From Escherichia coli (GTDB taxonomy: Bacteria > Pseudomonadota > Gammaproteobacteria > Enterobacterales > Enterobacteriaceae), in the NCBI RefSeq assembly GCF_013315695.1, contig NZ_CP054353.1: a stretch of DNA of 64,000 bases. One strand, written 5' to 3'. Below are positions 7,493-51,051 of the stretch, piece after piece. The notes beneath the pieces are model-generated. The model was not told where the DNA came from and ran no database searches. It saw only the letters and a program-made list of their open reading frames with translations. The translations under genes and the position numbers were made by a program. How positions within the stretch are numbered: the first letter of the stretch is position 1; each line of letters opens with the position of its first letter.

Positions 7493-8530
7493 TCAGGCTT
7501 TATTCTGACGCCACCATTCGCCAAGAAGAACGCCGGTTGCAACAGAGATATTTAGCCCGGCAACGTTGCCAGTACCATCAATCTTCACGCGCAAATCGTT
7601 CGGATCGCGTGCGGCATCCGGTAACCCTTCATATTCCTGACCCAGCACCAGTACCATTTTCGCTGGCAGACTGGTTTTGAACAGCGGTTTCCCCTGCTCG
7701 CTGGAAGTGGTCACTACGGTGTAACCTGCCTGACGGAAATCATCCAGCACGTTAACAATGTTGTCGCCAGTAATCGGCTGAACGTGCTCTGCGCCGCCTT
7801 CTGCGGTACGGATAGCCGCACCCGACTCCAGCAGTGCCGCATCCTGCACCACAACGCCTTTCACGCCGAAGTGCGCGCAGCTGCGCATCATGCCACCCAG
7901 GTTATGCGGGTTAGATTCGTTTTCCAGCGCCAGTACACAATCCTGCGCGCCTGCCTGGCTTACCCACTGCTGCACGGTTGTACCGTTACGCTTTTTGATC
8001 AGGAAGCAAACGCCGCCGTGATGTTCCGTGCCTGACGCTTTTGTCAGTTCCGCTTCATCTACCACATGGTACGCTTTGCGATTTGCTGCCATCCAGCGCA
8101 AGGCTTCTTTAAAACGCGGCGTTACACTCTGGATAAACCAGGCGCGAACAATCGCTTCCGGACGGCTCTGGAACAGTGCCTGACAGGCGTTTTCTCCGTA
8201 GACGCGGGTTTCTTCCGCACGCTGACGACGCAAAACTTCCGGATCAATAAAACTTTTACCACTGATACCACCGTGATCGGCCTTTTCCGGCGTCTCATCA
8301 CCCGGCGCGCGGGAAACCGTGCGCCACGGCGAATCTTCCCACTTGCGGTCACGGTGCTGACTCTGTTTGTCATCGCGGGCGGGGCGACGGCCACCGTCAG
8401 CACGAGATTTTCCTGGACGCCCGCCCCCTTTCCCGGTACGCGGGTTGTGGGTACGTTTATCAGAATCATCATCACTGCGGACATACATCACTTTGACCTT
8501 GCCGCTTTTACCTTTCATTTCATCGTTCAT
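7493..8530 (-). CDS. yfiF: SpoU/TrmH-family RNA 2'-O-methyltransferase with low-complexity basic N-terminal region
   Basis: ORF-track call trimmed to [11 protein letters not shown] (345 aa); C-terminal SpoU methylase fold motifs. Confidence 0.85.
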
Positions 8531-29181: not shown

Positions 29182-29474
29182 TATAAATGTCCCATTAAAG
29201 CTGGATAAATAAATTGACGGCGGCATCGGTAATTTGAGATTCGTTATAATTAAAAACGAACACAGAAAAAATAAGTATAATTTCGGTGAATGTTTTTGAC
29301 ATGATTAAATCCCTTTACTTTATTTATTTCTGACATAATACGTTACTTCCTTTTATTATTAACGATCTGTTTCTCATTTTTCTTTAAACCTGCCTGTAAC
29401 AGAATGTTAATAAGACATGATTGTTGTGGCAGGATCTGCAATAATTAACAATTATCCACTTCACAGAGAATGCT

Positions 29475-30485: not shown

Positions 30486-31307
30486 GTGTTCCCCGCGCCA
30501 GCGGGGATAAACCAAATACAGGACCAATATTTTGATATATATAATCGTGTTCCCCGCGCCAGCGGGGATAAACCGGTGATTCTGGCAATACTGGCACTTC
30601 CGTTTTGGTGTTCCCCGCGCCAGCGGGGATAAACCGGGCGGTTAACTGGTCCTGTGCGGATATGCGCTGTGTTCCCCGCGCCAGCGGGGATAAACCGATG
30701 TGGAAAGGCGAGCTGAGGGTGGCCTACGCGTGTTCCCCGCGCCAGCGGGGATAAACCGGCTGAGGAAATTGCTAAACCCTCGCAGGATCCGTGTTCCCCG
30801 CGCCAGCGGGGATAAACCGTTGCCGGTACAGCTCCAGCATTAATCCCCACCGTGTTCCCCGCGCCAGCGGGGATAAACCGTTGCGACGTGGTGCGCGCTC
30901 GAGCACAACGTTGTGTTCCCCGCGCCAGCGGGGATAAACCGATGTAAACCCCTCGCGCATCGAGTCAAATGTCGTGTTCCCCGCGCCAGCGGGGATAAAC
31001 CGCCACCTCAGCCTGCGCGCCCGCTGAATATTCCGTGTTCCCCGCTCCAGCGGGGATAAACCGGGACGCGTTCCATCAGGGCGGGTCCAGGGAATGTGTT
31101 CCCCGCGCCAGCGGGGATAAACCGCAGGCGGCGCAGTGGCGCATGAATCCGTTCGCGTGTTCCCCGCGCCAGCGGGGATAAACCGGAGTTTGTGAATTTA
31201 ACAGAATTCCGCGCCCGGTGTTCCCCGCGCCAGCGGGGATAAACCAGCCAATTGCCATATATGCCATCGCCAGCAGCCGTGTTCCCCGCGCCAGCGGGGA
31301 TAAACCA
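30486..31307 (+). CRISPR. Type I-E CRISPR array, 14 repeats / 13 spacers (distal array between queE and ygcE)
   Basis: 29-bp repeat GTGTTCCCCGCGCCAGCGGGGATAAACCG at exact 61-bp period from 30486 to 31279; 32-bp unique spacers; repeat 10 has GCTCC variant; repeats 1, 13, 14 end in A. Confidence 0.97.
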
Positions 31308-31944: not shown

Positions 31945-33423
31945 TTACGCATTCGACCAGCTCTGGATCGAATCCGCATTCCCCAATTCCCCATGCATCA
32001 CTTCATACGATTTTTTCAGTATCACATCAGTGTGTTTGGTTAGGTCTTTGAAAATGCCTTTATTCATCGCGTCGTAGCGTTTGGCGTTGCTCTCAACAGG
32101 CATAAAGATATCTTTCACGCGAACCATTTTGTCGACAGCCGTTGCGTAATCCGGATACAGACCAAGCCCTACCGCCGTATTAATCGCCGCCCCCAGACTT
32201 GCACAACCATTAATGGCGTTACGGCGTGCCGGAAGGTTGAACACGTCGGCAAAAATCTGCATAAACAGATCGCTGTTCGAACCGCCGCCAGTAATGATCA
32301 CATGCTTTGCAAAGTGATTCATTTCATTACACATATTGTCGTAATTGTTCTTCAGCGTCAGCGCCACGCTTTCCAGTATCGAACGATATATCCATGCGTA
32401 ATCCATGCTGGAATCAAAGCCGATCATAATCCCGCGTTTGTATGGTTCCCACGGATTGGTCAGCCAGTCCAGCACCGTCATCAGACCATTACAGCCAGGT
32501 GGCACACAAGACGCTTTTTTGTTGAGCAAATCTTCCGGTGAAAGATCCTGTGCTTTGGCATCCTGAATTAACGACTCGCCTAGCATGTCGCGTAGCCAGC
32601 TCACCGTCCACATGCCTTTGCGAATACCGTAACCTTCATACAGCAAGGTTTGCGGAATAGAAGACATAATCGGCCAGTACGCTACCGGATCTTTCGGCAG
32701 TGCTTTACCGTTCATCATCAGCGCGATGTAGGTGCCAAGAGAAATCACCGCCGTTTCATCATCCAGTAATCCGGCTCCCAGAGCTTCTACCGGTTTATCA
32801 CTGGTGGTACAAACAACCGGCAGCCCAGCTGGGAAATGTGTCGCCAGCGCGGCTTGAGGAGTGATATGCCCAAGAACAGTGCCCGGCATTTGCACATCAA
32901 ACAGCATATGACGGGGGATATTAAACTTCTCCATGACTGCGGCATCTTCACTCCATGCCCAGCTCTTATAATCCACCGGCCACTGACCAAAATAGTTGGC
33001 GATATTGTCTTTAAACTCGCCGGTTAAGCGATGCGTCAGATAACCCGAAAAAGAGGTGACATATGCCACGTCAGGATTCGTATGTTCGTAAGGGCGTGTA
33101 ACGCGTGCATCCTGCCAGCTAATCAACGGCGCAGCTGGCGTGCCATCGGCTTTCAATAACGCACGGCAGCAACGGATGGATCCCAGACCAATACCGACAA
33201 TATCTTCTTTATTTCCGGCAAACTGACTCATCAAATCGTGACCGGCAAAACATAATGATGCCCATAAATCGTCGTCAGGATGTTCTGCGGTATCGGCATC
33301 TGGCGTGTGCATCGGCTGCAATAAGCCTTTGCCTTCGCAAACCACATTACCTTCCAGATCATACATCACCACTTTTGTGCTCTGACTTCCGCCATCAATC
33401 CCTATGATGTATTTTTTCGACAT
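31945..33423 (-). CDS. ygcE: FGGY-family carbohydrate kinase
   Basis: 492-aa ORF with FGGY kinase N- and C-terminal motifs (IGIDGGSQSTK...). Confidence 0.9.
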   Translation of the reverse strand: MSKKYIIGIDGGSQSTKVVMYDLEGNVVCEGKGLLQPMHTPDADTAEHPDDDLWASLCFAGHDLMSQFAGNKEDIVGIGLGSIRCCRALLKADGTPAAPLISWQDARVTRPYEHTNPDVAYVTSFSGYLTHRLTGEFKDNIANYFGQWPVDYKSWAWSEDAAVMEKFNIPRHMLFDVQMPGTVLGHITPQAALATHFPAGLPVVCTTSDKPVEALGAGLLDDETAVISLGTYIALMMNGKALPKDPVAYWPIMSSIPQTLLYEGYGIRKGMWTVSWLRDMLGESLIQDAKAQDLSPEDLLNKKASCVPPGCNGLMTVLDWLTNPWEPYKRGIMIGFDSSMDYAWIYRSILESVALTLKNNYDNMCNEMNHFAKHVIITGGGSNSDLFMQIFADVFNLPARRNAINGCASLGAAINTAVGLGLYPDYATAVDKMVRVKDIFMPVESNAKRYDAMNKGIFKDLTKHTDVILKKSYEVMHGELGNADSIQSWSNA

Positions 33424-33449
33424 GATTTTTCTCCTGTAATTTTCTGGAC

Positions 33450-34727
33450 TTACTTGCTGCTAGCCATAGCAGGGGCGCTATCAGCAGTACGAATTTTTTG
33501 GAACAGCAAAAAGGTAAAGACGATCACCATGGCAAGCGCCGCCATGCCCATCAGCCACATATTGCGGTAGGCTTCTGCAGCGGGCAGGGTGTCTTGCCAG
33601 TAGCCGATAATCGGGTAAACGAAGACATCCGGCAGGAATCCAATCACCGAACAAATACCTACCGTGGTGCCCATAATGTAAGACGGTGTTCTCGCTTCGC
33701 CAGGGCAGGCCCAGTACAGCCCGCGTGAGGCGTAACAGGTGAATCCCAGCAGTAAAATCAGGCCAATCCCCATCGCGACCGATTGCGGGTTAGAGTTCGT
33801 GACGAGCAGGGCAGTTAACGCCAGCAAGCCGAGTACGGAAAGGATTTGGATCACGCGGGTAGGGGATTTCACTTTACTGTAGGTGGTGATAATGCCGCCA
33901 AGTGGACCACACAGCGCGCGGAATATTTTGTTGATCACAATCCCCATGTAGCTCGCCGCCACCAGCGACATGCCGTACATTTCGGTGAGATAGTTGGTGG
34001 AGTAACTCAGAATGGCGTAGATGGTGAAGACACCAAAAATCACCATGCTGCAATACCAGGTGGTGCTGATGCGCAAAACGGCCAGGATGTCGCTAAGCTG
34101 GAATGACTGTTTTTCTTCGTTATTGGTATTGCGCAGGTTGTTGTTATCGCTAACAAAAAACCAGCACAGAATCCCCAATAAAATGTAGACCACACTGTAG
34201 ATGATAATGACCGTTTTCAGGCTGGCGCTGTCATCCGGTGCAAAGCGAGAAAAGACCCACATGGTAAACACCGCCAGCGACATTACACCGACGCCGCGCA
34301 GCCCTTCCATCCAGCCCATAATTTTCCCTTGCTCGCTATGATCGCCCAGCAACGATGCGGCTTTAATCGACACCGACCACAGCATTAAAATCGTCGTTAT
34401 CGCAAAGGCGACCTGAATACAGAGCATTACCCACAGCGGTGGATAAGTTGCCATTAACAGACCCAGTAATCCGGTAATGATCATCGCGGAAGTAATCATT
34501 TTGCGATGTGAGAATTTATCGGCAATAACGCCACTGGGCGCATAAAGAATAATAGCTGCAATACCAAAGGTACTCATTATTAAACCTATCTCGGTATTGC
34601 TGAATCCCATAAATTTTGCTATGGGAATTTGATAAATATAACGTAAATAAGCCAGGTCGAAACTAACGCCGCCGCTAAAACTAATTATCGCGAGGGTTAT
34701 CCAACGGCGATATGAGTTGTGTTGCAT
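33450..34727 (-). CDS. yqcE: MFS transporter
   Basis: 425-aa polytopic membrane ORF; co-directional and adjacent to ygcE. Confidence 0.85.
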   Translation of the reverse strand: MQHNSYRRWITLAIISFSGGVSFDLAYLRYIYQIPIAKFMGFSNTEIGLIMSTFGIAAIILYAPSGVIADKFSHRKMITSAMIITGLLGLLMATYPPLWVMLCIQVAFAITTILMLWSVSIKAASLLGDHSEQGKIMGWMEGLRGVGVMSLAVFTMWVFSRFAPDDSASLKTVIIIYSVVYILLGILCWFFVSDNNNLRNTNNEEKQSFQLSDILAVLRISTTWYCSMVIFGVFTIYAILSYSTNYLTEMYGMSLVAASYMGIVINKIFRALCGPLGGIITTYSKVKSPTRVIQILSVLGLLALTALLVTNSNPQSVAMGIGLILLLGFTCYASRGLYWACPGEARTPSYIMGTTVGICSVIGFLPDVFVYPIIGYWQDTLPAAEAYRNMWLMGMAALAMVIVFTFLLFQKIRTADSAPAMASSK

Positions 34728-34750
34728 ATCGTATTCCCATTTGTAATAGA

Positions 34751-34797
34751 CAAAAAAAAGAGAAAAGTAAGCCGCCCTTTCAGGTGGATTACTTTTC
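34751..34797 (-). promoter_or_regulatory. Leader hairpin + U-tract 25 nt upstream of yqcE start (candidate attenuator)
   Basis: Minus-sense gaaaagtaa-N18-ttacttttc followed by cttttttttg. Confidence 0.35.
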
Positions 34798-34905
34798 TCA
34801 GGTCTCTAGTAATTGCAATAAGAAATAACATGGAAAGCAGTGGTGTTGTGTGAGAGTAGTCACGCTTCTGCTTTTTAAAATTATTTGATAATACGAATAT
34901 CACAC

Positions 34906-34921
34906 TGTGATTACGATCACA
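34906..34921. promoter_or_regulatory. CRP-type binding site in divergent yqcE/ygcW promoter region
   Basis: TGTGAttacgaTCACA, perfect match to CRP half-sites TGTGA-N6-TCACA. Confidence 0.6.
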
Positions 34922-34973
34922 TTAGCGCTTATGCCCTTATGCTAAAAATTATATCCAGTTACCAGAGATAATG

Positions 34974-35022
34974 AGAAAGGTAACTTCCCTCTCGCGGGGG
35001 AAGTTACCTTTCTTTTTTTTTT
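34974..35022 (+). terminator. Leader hairpin + T-tract 25 nt upstream of ygcW start (candidate intrinsic terminator/attenuator)
   Basis: Perfect 15-bp inverted repeat agaaaggtaacttcc-N10-ggaagttacctttct followed by T10. Confidence 0.5.
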
Positions 35023-35046
35023 GCCTTACGGAAATTGGAGCTAACT

Positions 35047-35832
35047 ATGTCAATCGAATCTCTCAATGCGTTCTCAATGGATTTTTTCTCCCTGAAAGGT
35101 AAAACAGCAATTGTTACCGGCGGGAATAGCGGTTTAGGCCAGGCATTTGCCATGGCGTTGGCCAAAGCTGGCGCAAATGTCTTTATCCCTAGCTTCGTCA
35201 AAGATAACGGCGAAACAAAGGAAATGATTGAAAAACAGGGTGTCGAAGTTGATTTTATGCAGGTGGATATCACCGCAGAAGGCGCGCCGCAGAAGATTAT
35301 CGCTGCCTGCTGTGAGCGCTTCGGTACCGTAGATATTCTGGTTAACAATGCCGGTATTTGTAAGCTGAATAAGGTGCTGGACTTCGGTCGTGCCGACTGG
35401 GACCCGATGATTGATGTGAACCTGACCGCCGCATTCGAGTTAAGCTACGAAGCGGCAAAAATTATGATCCCGCAGAAAAGCGGTAAAATTATTAATATCT
35501 GTTCATTGTTCTCTTACTTAGGTGGACAATGGTCACCTGCATATTCTGCAACTAAACATGCTCTTGCCGGATTCACCAAAGCTTATTGTGATGAACTAGG
35601 TCAATATAATATTCAGGTAAATGGTATTGCCCCTGGATATTACGCTACCGATATCACCCTGGCGACACGCAGTAATCCAGAAACCAATCAGCGCGTTCTT
35701 GATCATATTCCAGCAAACCGTTGGGGCGATACTCAGGATTTAATGGGCACAGCCATATTTCTCGCAAGTCCGGCATCGAATTATGTCAACGGACATTTAT
35801 TAGTGGTTGATGGCGGTTATTTAGTGCGCTAA
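35047..35832 (+). CDS. ygcW: Short-chain dehydrogenase/reductase (KduD/2-deoxygluconate dehydrogenase-like)
   Basis: 261 aa; Rossmann TGGNSGLG motif; catalytic YSATK. Confidence 0.9.
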   Translation: MSIESLNAFSMDFFSLKGKTAIVTGGNSGLGQAFAMALAKAGANVFIPSFVKDNGETKEMIEKQGVEVDFMQVDITAEGAPQKIIAACCERFGTVDILVNNAGICKLNKVLDFGRADWDPMIDVNLTAAFELSYEAAKIMIPQKSGKIINICSLFSYLGGQWSPAYSATKHALAGFTKAYCDELGQYNIQVNGIAPGYYATDITLATRSNPETNQRVLDHIPANRWGDTQDLMGTAIFLASPASNYVNGHLLVVDGGYLVR

Positions 35833-40547: not shown

Positions 40548-41123
40548 TCAAAGCAATTTTTTCGCTAGCGTCCAGACCCCGGTATTCGTGGTGGAAAGCG
40601 CCACGACACCTGCGTTAATCGCATTACGCGCATCTTCTTCATCGCACACCAGCCCGCCAGCAATCAGCGGTTGGCGGATTTTCTCCGTCACCCAGCCCAG
40701 CACTTTGGGCATACAGCCAGGCAGGATCTCAATACAATCCGGATTCGATTGCGCAACTTGCTTATCAATGTTGTGAAACGAAATCGAATCAACAATAAAC
40801 AGGCGATGAATACAGAAAAAACCTTCCGCTCTTGCTGCTTTCAGCATTGAGGCTTTGGTACTGATAATGCCGTCCGCCTCGGTCACCAGTTTCAGAAACT
40901 GAATCACCACTTCTTTGTTCGATGCGCCTTCCAGCAAATCGACATGAATAAAGGCATATTTCCCGGCACTTTTAATCTTTTTGACGATATGACTGATGGT
41001 GCAGATATTGCCGTACAACACGGAAATAAACTGGCATTCAGAGTCGATTGCCAGTTGCAGGCTGGCATTATCTTTAACGGCAGCAATCACCGGATTCTGG
41101 CGGAGCAGGTGTAAGAGGGGCAT
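40548..41123 (-). CDS. ygcP: GlpP-family (glycerol-3-phosphate-responsive antiterminator-like) protein
   Basis: 191-aa ORF matching remembered YgcP / GlpP family. Confidence 0.85.
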   Translation of the reverse strand: MPLLHLLRQNPVIAAVKDNASLQLAIDSECQFISVLYGNICTISHIVKKIKSAGKYAFIHVDLLEGASNKEVVIQFLKLVTEADGIISTKASMLKAARAEGFFCIHRLFIVDSISFHNIDKQVAQSNPDCIEILPGCMPKVLGWVTEKIRQPLIAGGLVCDEEDARNAINAGVVALSTTNTGVWTLAKKLL

Positions 41124-48351: not shown

Positions 48352-51051
48352 ATGCGTAAATATCCTTTAAGTTTACTGAAGGATAAAAATATTGTGACTT
48401 TTTTTGATTTCTGGGGAAAAACCCGACGCGGCGAGAAAGACGGGGGCGACGACTATCACCTTCTTTGCTGGCATTCGCTGGATGTAGCCGCGATGGGCTA
48501 TTTAATGGTTAAAAGCAATTGCTTCGGACTGGCTGACTATTTTCGTCAATTAGGTTTCGCTGACACGGAGCTGGCAGCACAATTTTTCGCCTGGCTGCTG
48601 TGCTGGCACGATATTGGAAAATTTGCCCGCTCTTTTCAGCAACTTTACCTGCACCCACAACTCAAGGTTCCGGAAGGCGCAAGAAAGAATTACGAAAAGA
48701 TCTCTCATTCAACGCTGGGCTACTGGTTGTGGAACCATTATTTAAGTGAATGTCAGGAGTTGCTTCCTTCATCTTCACTCTCTCCGCGCAAACTTAAACG
48801 GGTGATGGAGATGTGGATGCCCATGACTACCGGGCATCATGGTCGACCCCCTGAGCGTATGGATGAACTGGATAATTTTCTGCCTGAAGACAAAGGTGCC
48901 GCACGAGATTTTCTCCTTGCAATCAAGGTACTGTTTCCGCTCATAGAGATCCCCACATTCTGGGATGATGACGAGGGCGTTGAACTTATAAAACAACTTT
49001 CCTGGTATATCTCTGCAACCGTCGTACTTGCAGACTGGACGGGATCGTCAACGCGATATTTTCCACGCGTCGCACAGACAATGGATATTGAAGATTACTG
49101 GCAGAAAACTTTAGTTCAGGCTCAAAACGCCTTAACCGTCTTTCCTCCAAAAGCAGAAAGCGCGCCTTTCACCGGAATTAATACGCTGTTTCCTTTTATT
49201 GAGAATCCGACACCGCTACAGCAAAAGGTGCTGGATCTGGATATCAGCCAGCCGGGACCACAGTTATTTATTCTGGAGGATGTAACCGGCGCAGGTAAAA
49301 CAGAAGCGGCGCTTATCCTGGCGCACAGGTTGATGGCTGCGGGGAAAGCGCAGGGTTTGTTTTTTGGCCTGCCAACAATGGCAACGGCCAATGCCATGTA
49401 CGATCGACTGGTCAAAACCTGGCTTGCTTTCTATTCGCCAGAGTCCCGCCCCAGCCTGGTGCTGGCACACAGTGCCCGAACATTAATGGACCGCTTTAAT
49501 GAATCACTCTGGTCCGGTGATTTAGTCGGGTCAGAAGAACCGGATGAACAAACGTTCAGTCAGGGATGTGCGGCCTGGTTTGCCGACAGTAACAAGAAGG
49601 CGCTACTGGCTGAAATTGGCGTCGGCACGCTGGATCAGGCGATGATGGCTGTGATGCCGTTCAAACATAATAATCTGCGGCTTCTGGGACTGAGTAACAA
49701 AATCCTGCTGGCTGATGAGATCCATGCCTGTGACGCTTACATGTCATGCATTCTTGAAGGGCTGATCGAGCGGCAGGCGCGTGGCGGAAACAGCGTCATT
49801 TTGCTTTCTGCCACGTTATCTCAACAGCAGCGCGACAAACTCGTTGCTGCCTTTGCGCGTGGTATAGAGGGCCAGCAAGAAGCTCCGTTCCTGGAAAAGG
49901 ATGATTACCCCTGGCTGACGCACGTTACGAAATCCGATGTGCATTCACACCGGGTAGCGACGCGCAAAGACGTTGAGCGCAGCGTGAGTGTGGGTTGGCT
50001 TCATAGCGAACAAGAGTGTATTGCGCGTATCGAATCGGCGGTAAGTCAGGGGAAATGTATCGCCTGGATCCGAAATTCTGTCGATGACGCCATCCAGGTT
50101 CATCGTCAGTTACTTGCCCGCGGCGTCATTCCTGCTTCCAGCCTTTCACTTTTTCATAGCCGCTTTGCTTTTAGCGATCGCCAGCGAATTGAAACGGAGA
50201 CGCTGGCACGCTTTGGTAAAGAAGACTGTTCACAGCGTGCCGGAAAAGTCCTCATTTGTACTCAAGTCCTGGAGCAGAGCGTTGACTGCGACCTGGACGA
50301 AATGATTTCCGACCTTGCCCCTGTTGATTTACTGATCCAGCGAGCAGGGCGATTACAGCGACATATCCGCGATATGAATGGCCAGTTAAAGCGTGACGGT
50401 AAAGACGAGCGTCACCCTCCTGAATTGCTGATTCTGGCCCCCGTCTGGGACGACTCTCCGGGTGACGAATGGTTTGGCAGTGCCATGCGTAACAGTGCAT
50501 TTGTCTATCCCGATCATGGGCGAATCTGGCTGACGCAGCGTGTGCTGCGTGAGCAAGGTGCTATTCAGATGCCACACTCAGCCCGGCTTCTGATTGAATC
50601 AGTCTACGGTGAGGACGTAGTAATGCCGGAAGGGTTTGCCCGCAGCGAGCAGGAGCAAGTGGGCAAATATTACTGCGATCGCGCAATGGCTAAAAAGTTT
50701 GTACTGAACTTCAGGCCCGGCTATGCCGCCAATATCAACGATTACCTCCCGGAAAAACTGTCGACACGTCTGGCTGAAGAGTCTGTTTCCCTGTGGCTGG
50801 CTACCTGTATTGACGGTGTGGTGAAGCCTTATGCCACAGGTGCACACGCATGGGAAATGAGCGTTGTCAGAGTGCGCCGAAGCTGGTGGAAAAAACATCG
50901 GGATGAGTTTGCTTTACTGGAAGGGGATGCGTTCAGGCAGTGGTGCGTTGAACAGCGGCATGATCCGGAGATGGCAAACGTGATTTTAGTCACCGATGAC
51001 GAAAGTTGTGGGTATTCGGCTACGGAGGGATTGATTGGCAAGGTTGGTTGA
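48352..51051 (+). CDS. cas3: Cas3 HD-nuclease/helicase (type I signature protein)
   Basis: 899-aa ORF; HD motif LCWHDIGKF; helicase motif I TGAGKTEA, motif II DEIHA; position upstream of cse1; start codon uncertain. Confidence 0.9.
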   Translation: MRKYPLSLLKDKNIVTFFDFWGKTRRGEKDGGDDYHLLCWHSLDVAAMGYLMVKSNCFGLADYFRQLGFADTELAAQFFAWLLCWHDIGKFARSFQQLYLHPQLKVPEGARKNYEKISHSTLGYWLWNHYLSECQELLPSSSLSPRKLKRVMEMWMPMTTGHHGRPPERMDELDNFLPEDKGAARDFLLAIKVLFPLIEIPTFWDDDEGVELIKQLSWYISATVVLADWTGSSTRYFPRVAQTMDIEDYWQKTLVQAQNALTVFPPKAESAPFTGINTLFPFIENPTPLQQKVLDLDISQPGPQLFILEDVTGAGKTEAALILAHRLMAAGKAQGLFFGLPTMATANAMYDRLVKTWLAFYSPESRPSLVLAHSARTLMDRFNESLWSGDLVGSEEPDEQTFSQGCAAWFADSNKKALLAEIGVGTLDQAMMAVMPFKHNNLRLLGLSNKILLADEIHACDAYMSCILEGLIERQARGGNSVILLSATLSQQQRDKLVAAFARGIEGQQEAPFLEKDDYPWLTHVTKSDVHSHRVATRKDVERSVSVGWLHSEQECIARIESAVSQGKCIAWIRNSVDDAIQVHRQLLARGVIPASSLSLFHSRFAFSDRQRIETETLARFGKEDCSQRAGKVLICTQVLEQSVDCDLDEMISDLAPVDLLIQRAGRLQRHIRDMNGQLKRDGKDERHPPELLILAPVWDDSPGDEWFGSAMRNSAFVYPDHGRIWLTQRVLREQGAIQMPHSARLLIESVYGEDVVMPEGFARSEQEQVGKYYCDRAMAKKFVLNFRPGYAANINDYLPEKLSTRLAEESVSLWLATCIDGVVKPYATGAHAWEMSVVRVRRSWWKKHRDEFALLEGDAFRQWCVEQRHDPEMANVILVTDDESCGYSATEGLIGKVG

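What the first reader, a model, noticed from the sequence alone, without database searches (positions are those of the whole stretch)
34906..34921. Perfect CRP consensus site between divergent yqcE and ygcW
TGTGAttacgaTCACA matches both CRP half-sites exactly with the canonical 6-bp spacer, about 130-190 bp from each start codon. It is placed to give cAMP-CRP control of both divergent operons.
Basis: seen in the sequence. Interest (0 to 1): 0.35.

Follow-up and report, generated by a model that had tools for sequence, protein, structure and literature searches.

The report
Known CRP site, unrecognised twin leader attenuators
The perfect CRP site is real but already published; it is one half of a mirrored pair of regulatory modules, each with a CRP-dependent promoter followed by a leader terminator that is probably opened by the neighbouring, unstudied GlpP-like antiterminator YgcP.

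Summary
TGTGATTACGATCACA lies at 34906-34921 and is the only perfect CRP palindrome in the window. It is already known: predicted in 2007, found by ChIP-seq in ETEC in 2015, reported as CRP-activated with EMSA for yqcE-ygcE in 2021, and footprinted in vitro in 2026 (Kd about 1.7 nM).

The idea that one site serves both operons is probably wrong. A second CRP-like site lies at 34849-34864. The intergenic region holds two inverted copies of one module of about 150 bp: CRP site, TGnTA -10-like element, RTTACYAGAGA box, hairpin with U-run, Shine-Dalgarno, ATG. If the TG is read as an extended -10, each site sits at -41.5 of its own predicted promoter. The perfect site belongs to ygcW.

The module is conserved in about 15 enterobacterial genera. 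Both hairpins show covariation, and published Term-seq found Rho-independent 3' ends at both. An alternative pairing closes a loop carrying two GAGA repeats, as in the B. subtilis glpD leader, the known GlpP target. The leader also occurs, without any CRP site, next to ygcP homologues in Listeria, Bacillus and Thalassobacillus.

The most likely mechanism is CRP control of initiation plus YgcP-dependent antitermination. The YgcP step is inferred, not shown.

The parts
34906..34921 (.). CRP site 1, perfect TGTGATTACGATCACA (centre 34913.5). It is assigned to the ygcW promoter and lies at -41.5 of the predicted start at 34955.
   Evidence: published binding; fixed distance to the ygcW leader in 74 modules
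34849..34864 (.). CRP site 2, TGTGAgagtagTCACg with 9 of 10 half-site bases (centre 34856.5). It is assigned to the yqcE promoter and lies at -41.5 of the predicted start at 34815.
   Evidence: It is kept with at most 1 mismatch in nearly all enterobacterial loci and aligns in register with site 1.
34940..34948 (+). Predicted ygcW promoter core, TGcTAAAAA (an extended -10-like element). There is no -35 element; the CRP site overlaps that position. The predicted start is about 34955.
   Evidence: Read from the sequence. TGnTA is conserved 17-19 bp upstream of the leader box in 74 modules. The start site has not been mapped.
34822..34830 (-). Predicted yqcE promoter core, TGtTATTTC on the minus strand. 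The predicted start is about 34815.
   Evidence: the start site has not been mapped
34957..34985 (+). ygcW leader, proposed antiterminator. AGUUACC (34957-34963) pairs with GGUAACU (34979-34985) and closes a 15-nt loop, AGAGAUAAUGAGAAA, that carries two GAGA repeats.
34973..35022 (+). ygcW leader terminator: 19-bp hairpin at 34973-35014 (-31 kcal/mol, z = -7.3) and a U-run of 10 ending at 35022, 25 nt before the ATG. The published Term-seq 3' end maps to window 35008.
34788..34813 (-). yqcE leader, proposed antiterminator. AUUACU (34813..34808) pairs with AGUAAU (34793..34788) and closes a 14-nt loop, AGAGACCUGAGAAA.
34752..34799 (-). yqcE leader terminator: hairpin 34799..34760 (-20.5 kcal/mol, z = -4.1) and a U-run of 8 at 34759..34752, 25 nt before the ATG at 34727. 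The published Term-seq 3' end maps to window 34763.
35047..35832 (+). ygcW, an SDR oxidoreductase similar to KduD. It is the first gene of ygcW-ygcU-ygcS-ygcR-ygcQ.
31945..34727 (-). yqcE (MFS transporter, 33450-34727) and ygcE (FGGY sugar kinase, 31945-33423).
40548..41123 (-). ygcP, a full-length PF04309 protein (glycerol-3-phosphate responsive antiterminator family). It is the proposed trans-acting factor for both leaders.
   Evidence: E = 2.5e-62; PDB 3kts, E = 4.6e-28; it co-occurs with the leader

Best explanation
The yqcE-ygcW intergenic region contains two inverted copies of one regulatory module. In each copy a CRP site is centred about 41.5 bp upstream of a predicted start site. The promoter has only a TGnTA -10-like element and no -35, which is the class II CRP-dependent layout. 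The perfect site (34906-34921) drives ygcW and the 9/10 site (34849-34864) drives yqcE. Each transcript begins 2-3 nt before a conserved leader of about 65 nt. By default this leader folds into an intrinsic terminator about 25 nt before the start codon and releases a short RNA. Before the 3' arm is made, the leader can form a short alternative helix (RUUACY with RGUAAY) that uses up the 5' arm of the terminator. That helix presents a 14-15-nt loop carrying two GAGA repeats. I propose that YgcP, the GlpP-family protein encoded 5.5 kb away, binds this structure when its unknown ligand is present and so allows read-through. The ligand may be a phosphorylated product of the YgcE kinase. Expression would then need both cAMP-CRP (no preferred sugar) and the pathway-specific inducer. 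Shown: the sequence anatomy, its conservation, covariation of both helices, published CRP binding, and published 3' ends at both hairpins. Inferred: the start sites, the assignment of each site to one promoter, and all of YgcP's role.
For: CRP site: it is exact and unique in the window. Binding is published, and yqcE-ygcE is reported as CRP-activated.

Two modules: the two sides align in register from the CRP site to the ATG. In 74 modules from about 15 enterobacterial genera, 73 have a CRP-like site with at most 1 mismatch. That site lies 43.5-46.5 bp upstream of the box, and TGnTA lies 17-19 bp upstream, while the spacing between sites varies from 36 to 246 bp.

Terminators: stable hairpins followed by U-runs. 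98.5% of cells are paired, and 5 pairs show compensatory change. Term-seq in K-12 found 3' ends at both hairpins. Neither lies in a significant Rho termination region, and the intrinsic-terminator scores are 15.8 and 11.4.

Antiterminator: 98.7% of cells are paired, against 59% or less when the partners are slid. Box, 5' arm and 3' arm co-vary three ways. Further independent compensatory changes occur in L028 and in Listeria/Bacillus.

Link to YgcP: it is a full-length PF04309 protein, and no DNA-binding regulator is annotated in the island. The covariance model finds exactly two copies in the window and a divergent pair in every enterobacterial locus with enough flank. It also hits CRP-less Firmicutes next to ygcP homologues. 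Thalassobacillus scores 56 bits, and five Listeria loci have weaker hits at the same syntenic place, in front of the same gene set of SDR, FAD oxidase, FGGY kinase and transporter.

GlpP parallel: the experimentally GlpP-dependent B. subtilis glpD 5'UTR has the same layout. A short helix closes a 14-nt loop, CUGAGAUGAGGAGA, and overlaps the terminator's 5' arm.
Against: No start site has been mapped, so -41.5 rests on reading the conserved TG as an extended -10.

I found no experiment on binding at site 2 alone. ChIP-seq and EMSA cannot separate sites 57 bp apart.

No experiment links YgcP to RNA. All loci were retrieved through YgcP, so the co-occurrence is one-directional.

One locus, L046 (Serratia microhaemolytica), keeps a ygcP homologue with no leader within 7-10 kb.

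Most covariation counts come from two paralogous lineages, so there are only about four independent events. The resemblance to the glpD leader was judged by eye on a single sequence.

The Term-seq 3' ends lie at the base of the upper stem, not in the U-run. They may therefore be trimmed ends.

yqcE-ygcE mRNA is detectable and CRP-responsive without a known inducer, so that terminator leaks.
Confidence: 0.55

Rival explanations
1. One reading: the single perfect CRP site activates both divergent operons, and nothing else in the spacer matters.
For: One strong site lies between the two genes. CRP binds the region in vivo and in vitro. yqcE-ygcE is reported as CRP-activated.
Against: A second conserved CRP-like site aligns in register on the yqcE side. 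Each site keeps a fixed distance to its own leader while the spacing between the sites varies 36-246 bp. Site 1 would be at about -98.5 of the predicted yqcE start, out of phase for class I activation (established CRP rules). Both transcripts meet leader terminators.
Confidence: 0.15
2. The two short terminated transcripts are the functional products: CRP-dependent small RNAs of about 52-54 nt that act in trans. The terminators are constitutive rather than conditional.
For: Term-seq shows an abundant short RNA ending at the ygcW hairpin, with 40,640 reads classed as 'orphan'. Both terminators are strong.
Against: The hairpins sit 25 nt before the start codons of the only genes downstream, and I found no other conserved promoter for those genes. 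The conserved, co-varying alternative helix is unexplained by a simple sRNA. In Listeria the same leader heads a single operon. This reading does not exclude the attenuator model; a terminated leader could also act in trans.
Confidence: 0.1
3. The leaders are riboswitches that bind a small molecule directly, and YgcP is an enzyme or an unrelated regulator.
For: There is a terminator/antiterminator alternative with an invariant loop. The PF04309 fold has structural-genomics entries (3kts, 1vkf) and, from my own knowledge, is a TIM-barrel-like fold.
Against: The conserved part is only about 30 nt: one short helix and a loop, with no multi-helix aptamer. No Rfam family matches it. It co-occurs with a member of the one protein family known to antiterminate such leaders.
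Confidence: 0.07
4. The conserved inverted repeats (GTTAC / GTAAC / GTTAC) are DNA operators for an unidentified repressor, and the hairpin potential is incidental.
For: The box and the stem arms are conserved in sequence beyond what pairing alone requires.
Against: The upper stem varies freely in sequence and length but stays paired. A U-run always follows it. RNA 3' ends map there in vivo. No DNA-binding regulator is annotated in the island.
Confidence: 0.05

Closest known systems
Class II CRP-dependent promoters of E. coli (CRP centred at -41.5, for example galP1 and melAB-type sugar promoters)
   Same: It has the consensus 16-bp core, high-affinity binding (published Kd about 1.7 nM), no -35 element, a TG-extended weak -10, and it precedes a sugar or polyol catabolic operon. 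Catabolite control is paired with a pathway-specific signal.
   Different: The pathway-specific input appears to be an RNA-level antiterminator rather than a DNA-binding activator or repressor. Two copies of the whole promoter-leader unit sit back to back. The start site is predicted, not mapped.
GlpP-dependent leader terminators of Bacillus subtilis glpD, glpFK and glpTQ (GlpP is PF04309)
   Same: The 5'UTR carries an intrinsic terminator just after the promoter. A short helix closes a purine-rich loop with two GAGA repeats and overlaps the terminator's 5' arm. A PF04309 protein is encoded nearby. glpFK combines antitermination with catabolite repression by CcpA, which parallels CRP here.
   Different: The host is a proteobacterium. 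The regulated genes are not glp genes but an SDR, FAD oxidase, ETF, MFS and FGGY kinase island. The ligand is unknown. The stem and box sequences differ (RUUACY versus GGUC). YgcP binding has not been tested.
BglG/SacY-family RAT-terminator switches (E. coli bgl operon; B. subtilis sacB, licS)
   Same: It is protein-stabilised antitermination. A short RNA hairpin overlaps the 5' arm of a leader terminator in a sugar operon, which in E. coli bgl is also CRP-dependent (established knowledge).
   Different: No CAT/PRD-domain protein is present here. The regulator family is PF04309, and the RNA motif is not a RAT sequence.

Membership tests
CRP binding site | Palindromic core TGTGA-N6-TCACA | tested here: met
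   Exact match at 34906-34921, unique in 64 kb, 0.02-0.06 expected by chance.
CRP binding site | cAMP-CRP binds the sequence in vitro and in vivo | tested here: met
   Established by literature look-up, not by computation: ETEC ChIP-seq, Footprint-seq with Kd 1.7 nM, and EMSA on the yqcE promoter fragment.
Class II CRP-dependent promoter | Site centred near -41.5 of the transcription start, replacing the -35 element | tested here: inconclusive
   If the conserved TG is taken as -15/-14, both sites are at -41.5. This geometry is conserved in 74 modules. I found no mapped start site; the one TSS paper I tried was not held.
Class II CRP-dependent promoter | Transcription depends on CRP | tested here: inconclusive
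   Reported for yqcE-ygcE. I found no data for ygcW. The Term-seq leader ends are listed only for LB at OD 0.4, not for M63 glucose or LB at OD 2.0, which does not settle the question.
GlpP-type (PF04309) antitermination system | Intrinsic terminator in the 5'UTR between promoter and start codon | tested here: met
   Hairpins with U-runs 25 nt before both ATGs, with covariation and published Rho-independent 3' ends.
GlpP-type (PF04309) antitermination system | Mutually exclusive upstream structure overlapping the terminator's 5' arm | tested here: met
   The helix of cols 8-13 with 29-34 is 98.7% paired, against 59% or less when slid. Compensatory changes include independent ones in L028 and in Firmicutes. 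Independent events are few.
GlpP-type (PF04309) antitermination system | PF04309 protein encoded with the regulated genes | tested here: met
   YgcP matches over 173/173 profile positions, E = 2.5e-62. The Listeria and Thalassobacillus homologues are adjacent to the leader. One exception is L046.
GlpP-type (PF04309) antitermination system | RNA resembles a validated GlpP target | tested here: inconclusive
   The layout and the GAGA-N3-4-GAGA loop are shared with the B. subtilis glpD 5'UTR. This rests on one reference sequence compared by eye, with no statistic.
GlpP-type (PF04309) antitermination system | The protein binds the leader RNA and causes ligand-dependent read-through | not testable with these tools
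   No paper on YgcP function was found.
Any curated Rfam family | Score at or above the gathering threshold | tested here: not met
   The best hits over 34400-35400 are far below threshold, at most 25 bits against thresholds of 39 bits or more, and are to unrelated families.

The most novel reading that the evidence does not exclude
E. coli and many other Enterobacterales carry a working GlpP-family RNA-binding antitermination system: YgcP plus two twin leader RNAs controlling yqcE-ygcE and ygcW-ygcUSRQ. The gene set, the antiterminator and the leader RNA form one cassette shared with Listeria and Bacillales. Only the catabolite-repression input was exchanged, with a class II CRP site in enterobacteria and a cre-like element at the promoter in Listeria. 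As far as I could find, this would be the first GlpP-type system described outside Firmicutes. It would also give a conserved RNA motif for a protein family whose RNA recognition is poorly defined.
Probability: 0.5. Interest if true: 0.55.

Novelty: new member of a known kind. Interest (0 to 1): 0.4.

Why it matters
The CRP site adds nothing new, because it has been predicted, ChIP-ed, gel-shifted and footprinted. What matters is its context. It explains why a top-ranked CRP site sits in front of genes that stay silent and uncharacterised: initiation is not the limiting step, since both transcripts stop in the leader.

It also gives the orphan K-12 gene ygcP a concrete, testable job and two candidate RNA targets. 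It explains two unannotated Term-seq 3' ends. It supplies a conserved motif (RUUACY, then GAGA-N3-4-GAGA, then RGUAAY overlapping a terminator) that could define how PF04309 proteins recognise RNA. Finally, it may help find the inducer and hence the substrate of the ygc/yqc catabolic island.

Tried and rejected
- **Rfam:** a permissive scan of the region found no credible family.
- **Sigma-70 promoter scan:** the only hit is TTCTCA-18-TATAAT on the minus strand at 34977..34948. It is the same element listed as a predicted yqcE promoter in PMC3946193. Its hexamers are not conserved in other genera, and the hit count is no higher than in shuffles, so I set it aside.
- **Leader peptide:** the ATG at 34971 opens a 43-codon ORF, but that ATG is absent from the yqcE-type copies, so a leader peptide was rejected.
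- **Third leader copy:** the model found none upstream of ygcNOP or anywhere else in the window. BLAST finds a median of two copies per E. coli genome.
- **Literature gaps:** the 2025 review of RNA-binding antiterminators does not mention GlpP. Supplements of the Footprint-seq and 2021 Crp papers are not held, so I could not learn whether site 2 was detected separately. The dRNA-seq TSS paper I looked for is not held.
- **Coordinate error:** a first coordinate for ygcW was one base off and was corrected.

Full report
**1. The observation**

The 16-mer TGTGATTACGATCACA is at window 34906-34921. It is the only exact match to TGTGAN6TCACA on either strand of the 64-kb window. Dinucleotide shuffles give 0.02 matches, and base composition gives 0.06.

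The window is Escherichia coli, 100% identical to strain MSB1_4I over the tested 551 bp. The region is present in 5066 of 5426 complete genomes. RefSeq annotation confirms the neighbours: yqcE (MFS transporter, 33450-34727, minus strand) and ygcW (SDR oxidoreductase, ATG at 35047, plus strand).

**2. The site is already known**

PhyloScan ranked the yqcE/ygcW spacer second among E. coli CRP predictions in 2007 (PMC1794230). A CRP ChIP-seq study of ETEC H10407 lists exactly TGTGATTACGATCACA for ygcW/yqcE (PMC4287617). A 2021 study lists yqcE-ygcE as "Crp activation" among transcription units whose promoters bound Crp in EMSA and whose expression followed the Crp pattern, including in a crp null (PMC8085971). 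A 2026 preprint, Footprint-seq, reports acTGTGAttacgaTCACAtta at K-12 2900412 with an estimated Kd of 1.7 nM. That paper calls the site novel only in the sense of being absent from its list of 308 described sites (PMC12871828).

**3.

A 9/10 match, TGTGAgagtagTCACg, lies at 34849-34864, 57 bp from the first site. I aligned the plus strand from site 1 to the ygcW ATG against the minus strand from site 2 to the yqcE ATG. The two sides align in register along their whole length. The shared elements, in order, are:

- the CRP site;
- ATGyTAwwww;
- CARTTACYAGAGA;
- TGAGAAARGTAA, then a hairpin, then TTACYTTTCT and a T-run;
- a Shine-Dalgarno-like AAATNGGA;
- the ATG.

The spacer is therefore two inverted copies of one module of about 150 bp.

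**4. Conservation**

Using YgcP as the query I retrieved 64 loci from other species. In Escherichia, Citrobacter, Klebsiella, Enterobacter, Yokenella, Mixta, Pluralibacter, Buttiauxella, Serratia, Rahnella, Ewingella, Limnobaculum, Budvicia, Pantoea and Erwinia, both modules are present wherever the contig reaches far enough.

Among 74 enterobacterial modules, 73 have a CRP-like site with at most one half-site mismatch. Its centre is 43.5-46.5 bp upstream of the leader box, and a TGnTA element lies 17-19 bp upstream of the box. The distance between the two CRP sites, by contrast, ranges from 36 to about 246 bp. Each site is tied to its own leader and not to the other site.

If the conserved TG is the -15/-14 of an extended -10, the predicted starts are 34955 for ygcW and 34815 for yqcE. 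Each CRP site is then centred at -41.5 of its own start, the class II position, with the CRP site where a -35 would be. Each is also at -98.5 of the opposite start, which is out of helical phase for class I activation (established CRP promoter rules). These starts are inferred, because I found no mapped start site. On this reading the perfect site belongs to ygcW.

**5. The leaders are terminators**

Between each predicted start and its ATG lies a hairpin followed by a U-run. For ygcW it is a 19-bp stem at 34973-35014 (-31 kcal/mol, z = -7.3), followed by ten U's that end 25 nt before the ATG. For yqcE the stem is at 34799..34760 (-20.5 kcal/mol, z = -4.1), followed by eight U's that end 25 nt before the ATG.

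In an alignment of 64 leaders, the stem is paired in 98.5% of cells. Five pairs show changes on both sides (for example AU 38 / GC 25, and UA / CG), against 70% or less in slid controls. The upper stem changes sequence and length freely in distant genera but stays paired.

Published Term-seq for K-12 lists RNA 3' ends at 2900311 (minus strand, 38 nt before the ygcW ATG, 40,640 reads) and 2900556 (plus strand, 36 nt before the yqcE ATG, 1,557 reads). Both are classed as not in a significant Rho termination region. Their intrinsic-terminator scores are 15.8 and 11.4, where 3 or more suggests intrinsic termination, and no characterised element is noted for either (PMC7815308). The flanking sequences printed in that supplement are exactly the two leaders.

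The ends correspond to window 35008 and 34763, at the base of the GC-rich upper stem, so they may be trimmed ends. They appear only in the LB OD 0.4 data. RefSeq annotates nothing there, and Rfam has no matching family.

**6. An alternative, antiterminator pairing**

The box RUUACY just after the predicted start is a copy of the terminator's 3' arm and can pair with the 5' arm RGUAAY. This helix is paired in 98.7% of cells, against 59% or less when the partners are slid. GC/AU and UA/CG exchanges occur, and the box, the 5' arm and the 3' arm co-vary together. Independent compensatory changes occur in one enterobacterial MAG (box GUUGCC, 5' arm GGCGAC, 3' arm GUCGCC) and in Listeria and Bacillus (box GUUGCU, 5' arm AGCGAC).

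When the nascent RNA is folded only up to the hairpin loop, this helix forms in all five leaders tested. It closes a 14-15-nt loop with two GAGA repeats 3-4 nt apart. Most of the counts come from two paralogous lineages, so the number of independent events is small, about four.

**7. The link to YgcP**

ygcP (40548-41123, minus strand) is a full-length member of PF04309, the glycerol-3-phosphate responsive antiterminator family (E = 2.5e-62). [quoted passage not shown] No DNA-binding regulator is annotated in the island.

A covariance model of the leader finds exactly two copies in the window and a divergent pair in the enterobacterial loci. Nothing else scores above 40 bits in 1 Mb apart from reverse-strand echoes. 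The model also hits Firmicutes, which have no CRP:

- In Thalassobacillus the hit scores 56 bits, lies immediately beside the ygcP homologue, and precedes SDR, FGGY kinase, FAD oxidase and a transporter.
- In five Listeria species, weaker hits of 22-24 bits all fall at the same syntenic position. They lie in front of one operon encoding FAD oxidase, the PF04309 protein, MFS, SDR and FGGY kinase. This is the same gene set that E. coli splits into two operons.

No CRP-like site accompanies these leaders; the best candidates have at least four mismatches.

In B. subtilis, GlpP with glycerol-3-phosphate opens terminators in the glpD, glpFK and glpTQ 5'UTRs, and the glpD 5'UTR is portable onto other promoters (PMC9604022). 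The glpD 5'UTR printed in that paper's supplement has the same layout: GGUC[CUGAGAUGAGGAGA]GACC overlapping the 5' arm of the terminator. I found no paper on YgcP function.

**8. Most likely mechanism**

cAMP-CRP activates two back-to-back class II promoters. Both transcripts terminate in the leader unless YgcP, loaded with a pathway intermediate, stabilises the antiterminator. This gives AND-logic between catabolite status and inducer, as with CcpA plus GlpP at B. subtilis glpFK.

The roughly 26-fold difference in leader read counts fits the perfect site and better -10 of ygcW compared with yqcE. The weaker yqcE hairpin may explain why yqcE-ygcE mRNA is detectable without a known inducer.

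**9. Weak points**

- Start sites are predicted, not mapped.
- Binding at site 2 alone is untested.
- YgcP's role rests entirely on comparative genomics and analogy.
- The loci were gathered through YgcP, so the reverse co-occurrence is untested.
- One locus (L046) has ygcP without a leader.
- The comparison with glpD rests on one sequence.

**10. Verdict**

The finding as written is a correct observation of an already published CRP site, with a partly wrong functional reading. The surrounding architecture appears undescribed. It consists of twin promoter-leader modules with GlpP-type attenuators and a candidate regulator. It is a new member of a known kind and is of moderate interest.

Noticed in passing
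L057-L060, L064 about 8300-8345 (for example L058 just upstream of 8345): The Listeria leaders are preceded by TGTAAGCGTTCTATATACT. This is a cre-like (CcpA) sequence overlapping a TATACT -10, in the place where enterobacteria have the CRP site. It suggests the catabolite-repression input was swapped while the leader was kept.
   Followed up: partly
L033 13874-13963: In Limnobaculum eriocheiris the two inverted leaders appear to have collapsed into one bidirectional hairpin, with an A-run on one side and a T-run on the other, and with no boxes, promoters or CRP sites. This may result from recombination between the inverted copies.
   Followed up: partly
L046 7431-8000: Serratia microhaemolytica keeps a ygcP homologue (70% identity) among different neighbours, including a 1242-aa ORF upstream. 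No leader is detectable even with the model's filters off.
   Followed up: partly
window about 30486-31307: A CRISPR repeat array is annotated between queE and ygcE in the matching RefSeq record (L001 1887-2708). The Term-seq supplement also lists RNA 3' ends in the corresponding K-12 region whose flanking sequence contains what look like CRISPR repeats.
   Followed up: no
window 49650-49665: The only other CRP-like site with one half-site mismatch in the window is TGTGATGCCGTTCAAA. About 1.8 such sites are expected by chance in 64 kb.
   Followed up: no
window 34948-34977, minus strand: A sigma-70-like TTCTCA-18-TATAAT (10 of 12 matches) points towards yqcE from inside the ygcW leader. It is the same element given as a predicted yqcE promoter in PMC3946193. 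Its hexamers are not conserved in other genera.
   Followed up: partly
L057-L064 versus window 40548-41123: YgcP is 54-59% identical between Enterobacterales and Listeria, Bacillus and Thalassobacillus, and the neighbouring gene set is the same. This points to horizontal transfer of the whole cassette between phyla.
   Followed up: partly
window about 29195-29336 (L001 596-737): In this strain the RefSeq record marks a small frameshifted pseudogene next to ygcG, where K-12 has yqcG (cell envelope stress response protein).
   Followed up: no
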